64,000 nt of DNA from Eledone cirrhosa (Eukaryota), in NCBI GenBank assembly GCA_964016885.1, contig OZ024741.1, forward strand, positions 104,718,001 through 104,782,000, in the 5' to 3' direction. A program made the position numbers and the translations under genes. The first letter of the stretch is position 1, and each line of letters starts with the position of its first letter. The notes beneath the pieces are model-generated. The model was not told the DNA's origin and searched no databases. It was given only the letters and a program-made list of their open reading frames with translations. Shown piece by piece: positions 15,126-41,114 of the stretch.

Positions 15126-15389
15126 AATAAACGTAATGAAGACATAACAAATCGTCTTTTTTATTATTATTATTATTATTATTATTGGCGACCTACGTAG
15201 TAAATCGTATCATCGTGAGCTCCGCAAAGGTTTGTTATTTTCAGTTGTTTAAAATTGCAATTTATGGAAAACTTTTATTGTTAACTGTATATGAGTGCAT
15301 ATACATTGATTCCTAAAAAATATTGGGGCCTTGAGCCCAAAATTTAAACTTTTTATAATTATCAAACAAAAGTTTTTCTTTGAAAAATC

Positions 15390-16591
15390 ATGGATGAATC
15401 AGGGTCACTCCTTCCTCACAAACTAACACCTCACACCGACACCACCATTGTAAATATTGCTACGTTTGCCAACACTGGAAATGTAAGCAGTAGCAATATT
15501 TTAAATTTGTCTCAGGCAGACGTTCATTTCCCGCCATTACCAAGAACTGGTCCGGATCTGGGATGGAGCTCCTGATCCAAGCGGACCATAAAAGCATTGA
15601 GGAGATCCCAGAGGTAATAGACCTCACTGACGGCAGCCACCTCACCGTAATCGTCGAAGGCAGAAGGCCTAGGTGTGTCGTTTGTGGTGAAGGAACCCAC
15701 CTAAGGGCTTTCTGCCCTCAGGCTAAAAGGTTGAGGCCACCTCTCTTACCCACCCCAGTGACTCAACCATCAACACCACCAGCAGCAGAAATGGCAGCAA
15801 CAACTGTAGCAGCAACAACAGAAGCAACTATAACAGCAACAACCCCAGCAACAGTAGCAAAACCAACACCACCACCACCCAACGCGCCAGAATTAGCACC
15901 AGCGCTTACACCATCCACCACGCCACAACCAAAACCAACGCATGTGGAGGATTTTCCACTCCCCGACCTATCGCAACTGGAGACAGATTGTGACGACGAG
16001 GAGTGGGAAACGGTATCAGGAAAAAAGAAAAAACGAAACAAAAAAACAAGAATTTCTCTTCCTTCCCCCTCCAAAAACAAAATACAGAGGGAAACAAATA
16101 GACTATCAAACAAAAAAGTTAGGACAGATATGCCACCATCCACACCAGCATCACCAACCCCATCACCCCAAACACCAACACCATCACCATCATTAACCCC
16201 AACACCACCATCACCTACACCACAAAAGTCACCAAAAAGGGAAACAGAAACAAACCCACAACAAACACAAACAAAACAAAACAACCAAAACGATACACAC
16301 TACACAGCATTAAATTTGAACAACAACCAATTATTACACTACATCCAACACAACACCAGCATCACAGAAAAAGACTACACAACAACCCAAAAGTTCACAC
16401 CACCTCCACACATACAAATCACTCGCATCACACAGAAAACGTACATGACACTAAAACAAAAATTCCCCAAAGACACCGGAGACTTCCGACAAGCACTCTC
16501 CAGGAGGATTTATAAGGACATCCTTCCTGAGGAGGCCACAAGCAGTGAAAAGGATGGAGAAACCGTCCTTCCTCTACGAGAAGTAAGGTAA
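15390..16591 (+). pseudogene. Tx1 ORF1 (gag-like), internally deleted
   Basis: CVVCGEGTHLRAFC knuckle, Pro/Thr-rich linker and basic patch. The central domain present in copy 2 (34680-35180) is missing. Confidence 0.8.
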
Positions 16592-16625
16592 GTGGTCTTT
16601 CCCATCTTTTCCACTCCATTTCAAG

Positions 16626-19600
16626 ATGACCTCAGTCAGAATAGGCAGCTTAAATGCGCGTGGCTTGGGGTCGTCATGGAAGCAGGGCCACCTGCTCAAC
16701 GACCTCAGATCACTAAACATAGATGTAGTGGCCATCAGCGAGACCAGAATCTCCGAAGAACGGGCCTTCGCACCGATCTTCGGCGGCTACAATGTGTACG
16801 CATCTCCCAGCCGTCCGGGATCGGGGAGAGGAGTTGATGTGCTTTTTCGGAGAGGTTTGGATCCATCTTCTTGGACCCAGAAGGTAAGTTGGGGGTGCTG
16901 GACGTGACCAGCGGAGACGGGCAAGCTTTCAGGTTAGTGGCCGTCTATGCCCCGACAGGAGCAGGGCGGCCTGATTTCTTCCGGCGTCTAGAGACCTTTC
17001 TTGGAACGTCCCGCTCTTTAGTGTTAGTGGGCGACTGGAACGGGATCTTAGATGCACGCTGGGACTGTGTGGGATTAGTAGATACGGGAGGAGGGTGCAA
17101 GAGTCTCACCAACCTGCTCAGGCGTTTTGAACTGCCTGACGTGTACCGATTGGATTTCCCGAATGTGCCAATGTGGACTTGGACAAATCGCGTAGGGTCA
17201 TCCAGATCATATCTAGATAGAGTATTTTGTAGGGAAATAGATAGGTCTAGCATAGGCTGTCCACAATTCAAGATAGTCAGCTACACGGACCACAAATACG
17301 TGATCTGTGTGCTTGACTTAGATAGGCTTCATAGACGAGGACCCGGCTACTGGAAGCTAAACGCGTCCTTACCAGCGCGCAAGGCTTACAGAGACCGGAT
17401 TAGCGAACTAGTTAAGCGGGCGTTGACGGGGGCCATCGTCAACAACAAGTGGTGGTTTGCTCTGAAAAGAGCAATTAGAATAGAGTCCATTAGGTTTAGT
17501 AAGACTTTAGCAATAGAGAAAAATAGAGCAGAGGGAGACTTAGTTAGAAAATTAGACGAGGCGCTTAGCAAAGGCATCGCAACCGACGTACTTGCGGCGA
17601 AATTGGCCCTTGATCAATTCTTCAATGCAAAGCACGAAGGCTGCGTTGTCAGAGCTAGGGTGCGTGCTCTCAGGCACGAGGGGACGAAAGCCGTTCAATG
17701 GGCTCGAGTGGCGGAGGCGCGTCGTGGCAACAAAGCCACGATCCGGTCTTTGGTGGACCACGACGGGCGCATGCTACTCGATCCCGGGAAAATGTGTGAA
17801 GCTTTTCAGCGACACTTCCCTCAACTGTTCGGGGGCTGTGGCGGGCCGGATCGACAGACGGACTTTAGTGTCTACCTCGACAGACTGCCGCGGCTTTCGG
17901 TCACTGAGGCGGAGTGTTGCGTAAAGCCGATAACAACCGCTGAAGTACGGGAGGCAATGACTGGCTGCACAAGGGGTAAATCGCCTGGTTTGGATGGTCT
18001 GCCCTATGAACTTTACGTACAAATGCCAGACTTCTTCGGAGGCCTCTTGGCGGACGTCTACTGCAACTGGCAACAGAACAGGAGAATTCCCAGCTCTGTG
18101 AGCCGAGGAGCGGTGGCGCTGCTGAGAAAGGATGCGAACAAGGGGGATAACATAGATAATTTTAGGCCCATAATTCTGCTAAACACAGAGTTCAAGATTT
18201 TGGCCAAGGTGCTAGCAAAGAGGTTGGCGCTTGTCGTTGGTGGTCTGGTGGGAGAGGCACAGACATGCGCCATTCCCGACAGATCCATCCACGACAACCT
18301 CCACCTCCTGCGATACATCGTAGAGAGGGTAGCTAGGGAACCTGGCATGGGTGGGTCTTTGATCAATTTAGATCAGTCGAAAGCCTTCGATAGGGTCGAC
18401 AATCGTTACATAGCGGCAGTCCTGAGGGCGGTTGGCTTTGGGCCCATCTTCAGAGGCTGGATCGCTGCCATGCACAGCGACATCTGCTCTGTAGTGAGAG
18501 TGAACGGTCACCTTTCGGAACCGTTCAGCATCATGCGCTCGGTCCGCCAAGGATGTCCCCTCTCGTCCCTATTGTACGTATTGACTCTCGAGCCATTACT
18601 GCACAAACTGGAGACGTTGAGGGGGGTCCCGGGCGAACTAGGATGCGGAAGATCCGTGTCAGCATATGCGGACGATGTCACCGTAGTGGTGTCGAACGCT
18701 AAACACATCGAGGCGATCAGCACTACACTAAGAGAATACGAAGCGGTGACAGGAGCAATGATCAACCAGGAAAAGTCAGTGGGCCTGCAGCTCGGCACCT
18801 GGAGAGGCAGGTCCATGCCGTCCAACAGCGTCGTCGGGCGCTGGACGGACGGACCGGTTAAATTGCTAGGGGTCTGGTTCGGTCCAGACCTCCAGACGGA
18901 CAAAAACTGGGACGAGGTGACGAGCAGGGTGGCTTCTCTCACCCAGAAATGGGCGGAGAGGAAGCTATCCCTGAAAGGTCGAGCGAAGGTGGCTAACGCG
19001 TACATTGCGTCCGTCATCTACTACCGCCTGACCTTCGTACCTTGTCCTAAGCCCTGTCTGACTGCGCTGGAGCGTTTGCTCTTTCTCTTCTTGTGGAAGG
19101 GACGCGCTCGGATGGTCAGGCGGTCCATCTGCTGTCAACACCCGCTACGTGGAGGGCTGGGCATGCCGTGGCTGATGATGCGCAGACACACGCTCAGGCT
19201 ACGACATCTCCACCTCTTCCTCGACAGTGATCAGGTGTGGTCGCCGTTTGCTAGACACGTTTTTCCCCAGCTCGTCTCCTTGACGGAGCTGCAGTCCTGG
19301 GTCAAGCGAAGACCGAGAGGGAGCGCTTGGAGACTGGAATGTCTTCAGGCGCTCACATCCCTCGACCAATCGGGCAATGTGATCGGTGGAAACTCCACCT
19401 TGGAGTTCTATAGGGGATTAGTGGAGGGGAAGAGCGACGACGTACTTGGAGAAACTCTAGGCGTCGACGAAAATCAACTAGCCAATCTCTTCGGAAGGAC
19501 TTTCGGGCCGGGGCCTATGGACAACTTCCAGAAATCCCTGGCCTGGCAGTGCTACCGAGGAGCTTTGCCAGTTCGGGATAAACTCTACAAGCATGGAGGT

Positions 19601-39751: not shown

Positions 39752-40028
39752 ATTAAAGGCGGAAAACTGGGAGAGGGCACTTGCCCTGGTGGTCAGGGCC
39801 ACTGTGGTCTTTTAATGGGCTTTCTCCACAAATGTCCCTCGGAAGTCTCCCCTCTATTGGGGAATTTTTCTTTGTTATTTTATTTCAACCTCTGTTTTTT
39901 TTACACGCAGAAATGCCCATTTGTACCGTCCTGTATTGTCCTGTACTGTCCTTAATGTCTACTTTATGTAAACCCTTGTGGTTAATAAATAAATCATTAT
40001 TATTATTATTATTATTGTTGTTGTTATT

Positions 40029-40634
40029 CCTTGAATCTCAGTCATTGATGTTGGTTAACTGGAAAGTCCGTTGGATTGAATATCAAGCCACTACCTGCAG
40101 CCTCAGATATTCAGGACGTATCGGAGGGTTCTTGCTGTTCCAAGCAAGCATGCCTTTTGAAGCGTTCCAAAAAGCGTAAAGGGGCCGATTTTCTTTAACC
40201 ATCCCTGGAAACTTTTGGAGATAGTCCCCAGTGCGCCTATGACAATCGGGATCACTTTGACTTCATGGCAGTTCCAAATCCTTTTCACCTCCCACTTTAG
40301 GTCCTGGTATCGGTTAATTTTCTCCCTCTCCGTCTCTTGCACTCTCGTGTCGAATGGGCAGGCCACATCCACAATCAGACACGATCTTTTTTCTTTGTCC
40401 ACAACCACCAGGTCAGGTCTATTGTGTTCCAGTTTTTTGTCCGTCTGTATCCTAAAATCCCACAGCACCTTCACCTGATCGTTCTCCATCACCGCCTCTG
40501 GCCTATGCTCATACCATTTCTCAGAATGTGGTAAATTGTTTACTTTGCATAGGTGCCAGTGGATCACCCTGCCCATCACATCGTGTCTCCAGCCCTTATA
40601 GTGGGTCTGGGCTAGGTGTTTACACTCGGACACA
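40029..40634 (-). mobile_element. 5'-truncated Dong family A copy
   Basis: 176-aa RLE C-terminus near-identical to 20879-21410; (TTA)n directly at both junctions. Confidence 0.93.
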
Positions 40635-41114
40635 ATTATTATTATTATTATTGTTATTATTATTATTATTATTATTATTATTATTATTATTATTATTATT
40701 ATTATTATTATTATTATTATTATTATTATATATTTGTGTGTGTGTGTATTTGAAATTTAGCTTCAACATAGCTGTATACATATATGTATGTGAATTTCGT
40801 ATATCTAAAGATATATGGTATGTTTAATAAATAAACATTTTGAACGCCAAGCTATGAATAAAGGCTGACGGCCAGCGCCGTCTTGTAGATTTCAGCAGAA
40901 GCAGCTAGGATAACTGTCTATGTGAATTTCAAGCGAATGTCTCTTATCGAGAGACTGCTTCCCTACTGCTTTCTGCTGGTACTTGAAAACAAGTGAGAAT
41001 ATATATTATTTTCGCCTCTGTAGGTGGGATGACTATCCTCATTTGTACATGAAGCTGTATAAGTTTGCTCCGCTAGCTTCAACATAATTCTCTGCTGGAA
41101 CATGAAAATAGGCG

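What the first reader, a model, noticed from the sequence alone, without database searches (positions are those of the whole stretch)
15161..40728. A single (TTA)n tract inflated into a 25.6-kb nest with strict opposite polarity of two LINE clades
Seen: Tx1(+), Dong stub(-), Tx1 stub(+), DongA(-), DongB(-), DongB(-), Tx1(+), DongA(-). Every junction except 20350/20351 is (TTA)n. The 5'-truncated Dong copies (ends 33872 and 40634) also abut the repeat, which argues for targeting rather than tailing. All Tx1 copies read (TTA)n on their sense strand and all Dong copies read (TAA)n. Inference: APE and restriction-like endonucleases converged on one microsatellite but nick opposite strands, and each insertion leaves target for the next. 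The array would give convergent sense/antisense transcription, as in piRNA-cluster-like loci.
Basis: partly seen in the sequence, partly recalled or inferred. Interest (0 to 1): 0.75.

Follow-up and report, generated by a model that had tools for sequence, protein, structure and literature searches.

The report
Two retrotransposons share one microsatellite
Eight copies or fragments of two unrelated kinds of jumping gene are chained at a short TTA/TAA repeat and face opposite ways, as thousands of their ends do across this genome, likely because each kind starts copying on a different DNA strand; the chains likely grow by fresh insertion plus local copying, and a silencing role is untested.

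Summary
The nest is real as described: 3 Tx1-like (+) and 5 Dong-like (-) pieces, 8 (TTA)n tracts and one direct junction. It is an ordinary example of a genome-wide pattern. Tx1 3' ends meet (TTA)3 5,578 times and (TAA)3 18 times; DongB 3' ends meet (TAA)3 5,256 times and (TTA)3 never. Truncated 5' ends obey the same rule, so this is targeting, not tailing. Added here: 20 of 20 fetched Tx1 copies that end directly on (TTC)n have (TTA)n upstream, so Tx1's 3' tract is target DNA and any duplication is at most 3 bp. The two long Tx1 copies share a 99.4% identical 3' end, and another nest holds duplicated units, so local copying also builds nests. Each half has a precedent (Dong on TAA; Koshi-type Tx1; TRAS/SART opposite orientations). 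A TTA-targeting Tx1 sharing Dong's target was not found in my searches. This scan already reported the pattern on other pieces of this genome (e1-8815567, e1-10313429). Nicking and the piRNA idea are untested; no long reads were available.

The parts
15029..15160 (+). 3' part of an abundant short repeat (about 133 bp) with a T/A-rich end; likely source of the seed tract (inferred)
   Evidence: 3,294 first-look candidates in the genome; ends of 11 other copies inspected, several followed by short TTA-like runs
15161..15184 (+). (TTA)8, left end of the nest
15185..20277 (+). Tx1-like LINE, family a: intact 5' end, ORF1 with CCHC knuckle and a deletion of about 750 bp, ORF2 APE-RT-zf-RVT with the APE start in another frame
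19498..20277 (+). 3' 780 bp shared at 99.4% with 39217-39996; likely local gene conversion or partial duplication
20278..20301 (+). (TTA)8
20302..20350 (-). 49-bp 3' stub of DongA, same sequence variant as the copy at 40015
20351..20739 (+). 389-bp Tx1 3' stub joined directly to the Dong stub; 100% identical to a copy on C6 (L144) and 90% to the neighbouring Tx1, so not a tandem duplication of its neighbour
   Evidence: junction not bridged by any listed record
20740..20790 (+). (TTA)17
20791..24973 (-). DongA (RT, CCHC, restriction-like endonuclease motifs; ORF broken); 5'-truncated by about 1.1 kb
24974..24991 (+). (TTA)6
24992..30001 (-). DongB, near full length (lacks about 14 nt at the 5' end; ORF frameshifted near its 3' end)
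30002..30145 (+). about (TTA)48 with one TCA unit
30146..33872 (-). 5'-truncated DongB; open frame of 1,194 aa from the truncation point to the stop
33873..33941 (+). (TTA)23, head-to-head junction
33942..39996 (+). Tx1-like LINE, family b: full length, different 5' UTR/ORF1, ORF2 broken; last 780 bp of family-a type
39997..40014 (+). (TTA)6
40015..40635 (-). 5'-truncated DongA, about 620 bp
40636..40728 (+). about (TTA)31 with one TTG unit, right end of the nest

Best explanation
This is a chain of Tx1-like and Dong-like LINE copies sitting in TTA/TAA repeats with fixed, opposite orientations, likely because each family's protein opens and primes from a different strand of the same repeat, and the chain likely grew by repeated targeted insertion plus some local copying between neighbours. 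Shown: anatomy, polarity, targeting at both ends, clustering, and local sequence sharing. Inferred from the standard target-primed reverse transcription model: the Tx1 APE-type nuclease nicks the A-rich strand at AA^T or AAT^A and needs (TTA)n on the upstream side; the Dong protein (restriction-like nuclease, probably helped by a Myb-like domain) primes from the T-rich strand. Each insertion splits one tract into two. Tracts in nests are longer than free ones, so occupied sites are probably better targets. Conversion or unequal exchange between similar neighbours adds or homogenises units. The opposite polarity is most simply each clade's inherited polarity meeting on one duplex.
For: Genome-wide exact patterns: Tx1 3' end + (TTA)3, 5,578 matches, against + (TAA)3, 18 matches at 17 places. 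Tx1a 5' end preceded by (TTA)3, 2,385, against (TAA)3, 0. DongB 3' end + (TAA)3, 5,256 matches (11 of the first 100 listed are double counts), against (TTA)3, 0. In 80 fetched 9.9-kb regions, truncated 5' boundaries: Tx1 15 TTA, 0 TAA, 13 neither of 28; DongA 41 TAA, 1 TTA, 22 neither of 64; DongB 38 TAA, 0 TTA, 4 neither of 42; 39 internal breaks set aside; background 25 of 4,820 windows. 94 of 96 tracts with an element on both sides follow the rule. 25 Tx1 3' ends run straight into (TTC)3; 20 of these were fetched and 20 of 20 have (TTA)n at the 5' side; they are not one clade (7 changes on the tree, 4 forced by well-supported branches). Clustering in the first 62 Mb of C1: 46 of 80 DongB ends have a Tx1 end within 15 kb (local-shift null mean 5.2, maximum 14), and 40 of the 46 are on opposite strands. 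Two-sided tracts have a median of 12 units (n=96) against 5 in controls (n=12). Most window copies have their closest match elsewhere in the genome. Raw reads of another sample with the same species label show (TTA)n next to the DongA 3' end (loose ends). Domain evidence.
Against: No nicking or priming was assayed. 39 of 134 truncated 5' boundaries have no repeat within about 36 bp; some are alignment breaks or direct Tx1/Dong joins, but they were not all resolved. Six of the 46 neighbouring DongB-Tx1 pairs are on the same strand (all at least 9.7 kb apart). DongA 3' ends carry shared CAA interruptions in the repeat, so part of that tract is copied from the element's RNA, and RNA-DNA pairing may help set Dong's polarity. 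The two long Tx1 copies are sisters at their 3' ends, so not every junction here is an independent insertion. The 80 regions were chosen by similarity to window copies, not at random. The clade names rest on domain layout and target, not on a tree with reference elements.
Confidence: 0.82

Rival explanations
1. Polarity is set mainly by pairing of the element RNA's 3' end (read through into the repeat) with whichever strand is nicked, and the nucleases need not be strand-selective.
For: DongA 3' ends share CAA-interrupted TAA units across loci, which marks an RNA-templated tail. Short pairing helps SART1 priming (PMC7265360 passages). In the TTA|TTC border cases 2-3 nt of pairing remain possible.
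Against: 20 of 20 fetched TTC-ending Tx1 copies have no TTA unit at the 3' side yet have (TTA)n at the 5' side, which points to protein recognition of the upstream repeat. Swapping the endonuclease swaps the target in TRAS/SART (PMC7265360 passages).
Confidence: 0.15
2. Nests grow mainly by tandem duplication and gene conversion of existing units rather than by fresh insertion.
For: The window's Tx1 copies differ by 0.4-1.0% over the last 800 bp but by 2.7-9.2% upstream; 99.4% is the best of about 113 hits. On C1 at 55.42-55.46 Mb, Tx1b copies are 98.8-99.1% alike and two DongB pieces share one breakpoint at 100% over 812 bp.
Against: In this nest DongB1, DongB2, DongA1, DongA2 and the Tx1 stub each match a copy elsewhere best and have different 5' breakpoints. 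Duplication does not explain polarity at lone copies.
Confidence: 0.12
3. The repeats are only tails added during insertion, with no targeting.
For: All families end in the repeat; DongA carries templated units.
Against: Truncated 5' ends abut the repeat in the right polarity, 94 against 1; there are 2,385 Tx1a 5' junctions; the TTC-border copies have no TTA tail.
Confidence: 0.02
4. The chain is an assembly artefact of collapsed or misjoined repeats.
For: No long reads were available; no listed record bridges 20350/20351.
Against: Copies in the nest differ from each other by 2.5-10% apart from the converted 3' end. The same junction types recur at thousands of places. Raw reads show the Dong-repeat junction.
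Confidence: 0.03
5. The nest is a selected, piRNA-cluster-like silencing locus.
For: Geometry only: tail-to-tail Tx1/Dong pairs (22 of 96 two-sided tracts) would give antisense RNA on read-through.
Against: Such nests are common and dispersed, and targeting explains their layout without selection.
Confidence: 0.06

Closest known systems
Dong (R4 clade; Bombyx, Anopheles, Biomphalaria, ostracod)
   Same: RT plus restriction-like endonuclease; (TAA)n target on the sense strand (PMC3812793, PMC3774820, PMC7998251 passages). Dong-R4 and L1-Tx1 are listed among recently active LINEs of Octopus vulgaris (PMC13282606 Table 1).
   Different: Two families here (40% amino-acid identity) share a 5' UTR (85%) and share the target with an APE element. 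The HDV-like 5' ribozyme reported for Bombyx Dong was not found here (inconclusive).
Kibi (TC)n, Koshi (TTC)n and crocodilian (TTCC)n/(TTTC)n Tx1 families
   Same: APE-type Tx1 elements in microsatellites, targets written as the pyrimidine-rich strand (PMC4494074 passages and section 15).
   Different: The target here is (TTA)n, with sister families in (TATC)n. I found no report of a TTA target.
TRAS and SART of Bombyx mori
   Same: Two LINE families in one short repeat in opposite directions, set by their endonucleases (PMC7265360 passages).
   Different: There the target is the telomeric TTAGG repeat and both families are APE elements of the R1 clade (clade recalled). Here one is APE and one RLE, in a dispersed microsatellite.
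Keno and Utopia in U2 snRNA genes; R1 and R2 in 28S rDNA
   Same: An APE element and an RLE element converge on one multicopy target (Keno: PMC4494074 passage; Utopia: PMC4640811 passage; R1/R2 pairing recalled).
   Different: Those targets are RNA genes that insertion interrupts; here the target survives on both sides and allows mixed chains.

Membership tests
R4/Dong clade | Single ORF with RT followed by CCHC knuckle and restriction-like endonuclease | tested here: met
   RVT_1; CxxC..H..C, RPD..D and K..KY motifs in DongA and DongB (motif labels recalled); aligns to R2 from residue 427 to 1140, E 4e-25
R4/Dong clade | No APE domain | tested here: met
   No Exo_endo_phos hit in the seven minus-strand ORFs scanned
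R4/Dong clade | N-terminal SANT/Myb-like domain without zinc fingers (PMC7998251) | tested here: inconclusive
   No Pfam hit. Four-helix model, pLDDT 86. Foldseek found nothing at E<=0.001. VIA-align rows include Sap1 (Z 5.7, rmsd 5.1, 78 aligned), NgTRF (Z 5.3), ISWI and the N-terminal region of R2 (Z 4.9), but the top row is unrelated and all Z are under 8
R4/Dong clade | (TAA)n target on the sense strand | tested here: met
R4/Dong clade | RT tree placement with reference Dong/R4 | not testable with these tools
   No named reference was returned; the Atlas gave no answer
R4/Dong clade | 5' HDV-like ribozyme (shown for Bombyx Dong, PMC3774820) | tested here: inconclusive
   No Rfam ribozyme match; my own loose descriptor, built from recall, found none in 9 distinct 5' ends
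Tx1 clade | ORF2 with APE, RT and C-terminal zinc region; L1-group RT | tested here: met
   Exo_endo_phos, RVT_1 and zf-RVT; best solved relative is human L1 ORF2p, E 4e-46, against 6e-18 for R2
Tx1 clade | ORF1 with a zinc knuckle | tested here: met
   C-x2-C-x4-H-x4-C in 15494-16591; no Pfam match
Tx1 clade | Tree placement in Tx1 rather than L1 proper | tested here: inconclusive
   The only informative name is 'Transposon TX1 uncharacterized 149 kDa protein', Stylophora, 31% identity; no tree with references was built
Tx1 clade (Kibi/Koshi type) | Microsatellite-specific insertion in fixed orientation | tested here: met
TRAS/SART | Telomeric TTAGG target | tested here: not met
   The target is (TTA/TAA)n at an internal site, 104.7 Mb into a 416-Mb contig. 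It works alike but is not a member
piRNA cluster | Source of abundant 24-31 nt RNAs | not testable with these tools
   No run on record as RNA was listed

The most novel reading that the evidence does not exclude
An APE retrotransposon and an RLE retrotransposon share one dispersed microsatellite on opposite strands at thousands of sites, so their chains self-assemble into tail-to-tail pairs whose read-through transcripts are antisense to the other family: a distributed, mutual small-RNA silencing system built by target choice alone.
Probability: 0.1. Interest if true: 0.75.

Novelty: new variant of a known kind. Interest (0 to 1): 0.45.

Why it matters
It gives a natural pair of unrelated enzymes reading opposite strands of one simple repeat, with thousands of junctions, plus sister Tx1 families about 65% identical that use (TATC)n. 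That makes target choice by LINE endonucleases testable by domain swaps. The TTA|TTC border insertions already show which side of the cut carries the recognised sequence. It may also help explain hotspots of Dong-R4 and Tx1 in octopod-like genomes. This single locus is not special, and the scan has reported the pattern before.

Tried and rejected
The 444-bp tandem repeat flagged at 19906-20762 as a local duplication: rejected, because the Tx1 stub is 90% like its neighbour and 100% like L144. A target-site duplication of the Dong 3' end around the stub: rejected, because the two Dong ends are different sequence variants. One source copy transducing a (TTC)n tail: disfavoured, because the TTC-ending copies span both families and several branches; 2 loci with TTC followed by TTA (L248, L257) remain compatible with it. 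Transduction of antisense Dong by Tx1 read-through: cannot explain 41 Dong-Dong pairs, and the CCTTGAATCTCAG Dong variant follows Tx1 in only 5 of 19 cases. Read validation: only short contigs and RAD-seq reads were offered; no listed piece spans the stretch or the 20350 junction, which proves nothing either way. No RNA holder listed. Rfam gave four weak matches, none meaningful. Foldseek on the Dong N-terminal model gave nothing at E<=0.001. The protein Atlas gave no answer. The first junction count was discarded because the DongA reference held a SINE; one search repeats it with that part masked. No relatives' look-alikes among earlier findings. The original Dong paper is not held, and the supplements of PMC4494074, which may list further Tx1 targets, could not be read.
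Full report
Observation. Eight element pieces lie between 15161 and 40728, separated by eight (TTA)n tracts of 6 to about 48 units and one direct junction at 20350/20351. The plus-strand elements carry APE, RT and zf-RVT domains, and their closest solved relative is L1 ORF2p. The minus-strand elements carry RT, a CCHC knuckle and restriction-like endonuclease motifs and align to R2. 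All four larger Dong copies are 5'-incomplete. The two Tx1 families share ORF2 at 96% but have unrelated 5' parts; the two Dong families share a 5' UTR at 85% but are only 40% identical in protein. The genome is 3.0 Gb, and the closest named protein hit is from Argonauta hians at 67%, so an octopod host is likely (inference).

Polarity is genome-wide. Exact-pattern counts: Tx1 3' end with (TTA)3, 5,578; with (TAA)3, 18 matches at 17 places. Of 9 of these exceptions inspected, 4 have a short TAA run followed by a TTA run. Tx1a 5' end after (TTA)3, 2,385; after (TAA)3, 0. DongB 3' end with (TAA)3, 5,256 matches (11 of the first 100 listed are double counts); with (TTA)3, 0. DongA was not counted genome-wide; in the 80 fetched regions 65 of 65 DongA 3' ends meet TAA. 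In those regions Tx1 3' ends were 58 TTA, 1 TAA, 1 both and 3 neither of 63, and DongB ends were 42 TAA, 1 both and 1 neither of 44.

Targeting, not tailing. A 5' flank at a truncation point cannot come from the RNA. Truncated 5' boundaries: Tx1 15 TTA, 0 TAA, 13 neither (n=28); DongA 41 TAA, 1 TTA, 22 neither (n=64); DongB 38 TAA, 0 TTA, 4 neither (n=42). I set aside 39 internal breaks, and kept only hits of at least 100 bp and 85% identity. Background is 25 of 4,820 control windows. A natural experiment sharpens this. Of 36 Tx1 3' ends followed by three TT(non-A) units, 25 run into (TTC)3. I fetched 20 of the 25, and all 20 have (TTA)n at the 5' end and none at the 3' junction. They include both families and fall on several branches (bootstrap not fully settled). 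So these copies entered at TTA|TTC borders, Tx1's 3' tract is target DNA, the recognised repeat probably lies upstream, and any target-site duplication is at most TT or ATT. These copies were selected for lacking a TTA unit, so they show what is possible, not what is typical. For DongA, shared CAA interruptions after the 3' end show that a few units are element-templated.

How nests grow. In the first 62 Mb of C1, using the first 100 listed Tx1 ends and the 80 distinct DongB ends in that span, 46 of 80 DongB ends have a Tx1 end within 15 kb, against 3.0 (uniform) or 5.2 (local shift) expected. 40 of the 46 are on opposite strands; the other 6 are at least 9.7 kb apart. Two-sided tracts have a median of 12 units (n=96), one-sided 10 (n=124), and control tracts 5 (n=12 in 19 regions). 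Free short tracts are common, so splitting alone would not give this clustering; a preference for long or already occupied tracts is inferred. Local copying also contributes. The two long Tx1 copies in the window differ by 2.7-9.2% over their first 2.9 kb of shared sequence but by 0.4-1.0% over the last 800 bp, where the family-b copy switches to family-a type. They are sisters in the tree (95/91) and each other's best match among about 113 hits. On C1 a chain of about 32 kb holds five Tx1b copies, four pairwise comparisons of which gave 98.8-99.1%, and two DongB pieces identical over 812 bp with the same breakpoint. The other five pieces tested in the window match best elsewhere, so this nest looks mostly insertion-built. 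The direct junction is either an edge insertion or a deletion between head-to-head copies; similar joins occur in 2 of the 80 regions (L118, L127). The left flank is an abundant short repeat with a T/A-rich end, a likely seed. No empty allele was seen. A chain of about 43 kb also lies on C1, and 1 of 20 fixed control regions hit a nest, so 25.6 kb is not exceptional.

Mechanism. By established target-primed reverse transcription, the strand antisense to the element is opened first and primes copying. Fixed polarity then implies that Tx1 primes from the A-rich strand and Dong from the T-rich strand. This is inferred and was not assayed. R4/Dong elements are reported to carry an N-terminal Myb-like domain (PMC7998251 passages); my model gives weak Myb/SANT-like matches only. 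RNA-primer pairing remains a rival, mainly for Dong. Convergent transcription is only a geometric possibility.

Comparison with what is known. Dong in (TAA)n, including a mollusc, is known (PMC3812793, PMC7998251 passages), and the primer sequence in PMC3774820 shows TAA on the sense strand upstream of Bombyx Dong. Tx1 families in (TC)n, (TTC)n, (TTCC)n and (TTTC)n are known (PMC4494074 passages and section 15; supplements not available). Opposite orientation in one repeat is known for TRAS and SART (PMC7265360 passages). APE and RLE elements on one target are known for Keno and Utopia (PMC4494074, PMC4640811 passages); the R1/R2 pairing is recalled. Dong-R4 and L1-Tx1 are active in O. vulgaris (PMC13282606, part 1 of 3 and passages), and a Dong element is mentioned in PMC9115989 (passages); the passages I saw do not describe targets or nests. 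PMC8967140 and PMC2887409 were seen as listings only. Searches showed no report of a TTA-targeting Tx1 or of a shared Tx1/Dong target. Kojima and Fujiwara 2004, the original Dong paper and Repbase were not seen, so absence from print is not established.

Earlier notes of this scan describe the same pattern on other pieces of this genome and the TATC and ATT sister families. I read them after my own 80-region counts; they are not independent evidence.

Verdict. Real, targeted, strictly polarised and genome-wide; a new combination of known behaviours. Best explanation 0.82; new variant of a known kind; interest 0.45.

Noticed in passing
window 47812-61524: Second nest: three Tx1-like copies head to tail in (TATC)n, about 65% amino-acid identity to the TTA family. 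In 30 genome loci 19 3' ends and 17 of 25 truncated 5' ends meet (TATC)3, and none meets (GATA)3.
   Followed up: partly
L150 (inside the DongA 5' UTR) and many loci: An abundant tRNA-like SINE (label by eye) leans to TTA polarity: 32 of 103 3' ends TTA, 0 TAA; 43 of 136 5' ends TTA, 1 TAA. It may use the Tx1 machinery (untested).
   Followed up: partly
window about 10,700-14,930, + strand: C-rich element with a weak RT match and a C-terminal region resembling a GIY-YIG nuclease; Penelope-like by recall; separate from the nest.
   Followed up: no
window 1317-2620 (-), 41579-42560 (+), 3519-3908 (-): Older Tx1 relatives (64-76% identity) ending near (TA)n runs, and an 82% DongA-like fragment.
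   Followed up: no
L097, L108, L134 and window 20351: Tx1 5' truncations recur at reference positions 5534-5541, at an ATTTCATT word that resembles the target: a possible truncation hotspot or a short non-autonomous form.
   Followed up: partly
genome-wide: Tx1a 5' ends alone number 2,385 against 5,578 Tx1 3' ends, a high share of intact 5' ends; all 100 listed 5' junctions are identical. Dong copies are mostly truncated.
   Followed up: no
L258, L262, L270: The sequence after the long (TTC)n tracts is shared between loci, which hints at a further repeat family tied to TTC/GAA tracts.
   Followed up: no
L119 (C1:28.01-28.02 Mb): Two Tx1 stubs with the same breakpoint sit in a minisatellite without TTA tracts, probably duplicated with it.
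   Followed up: no
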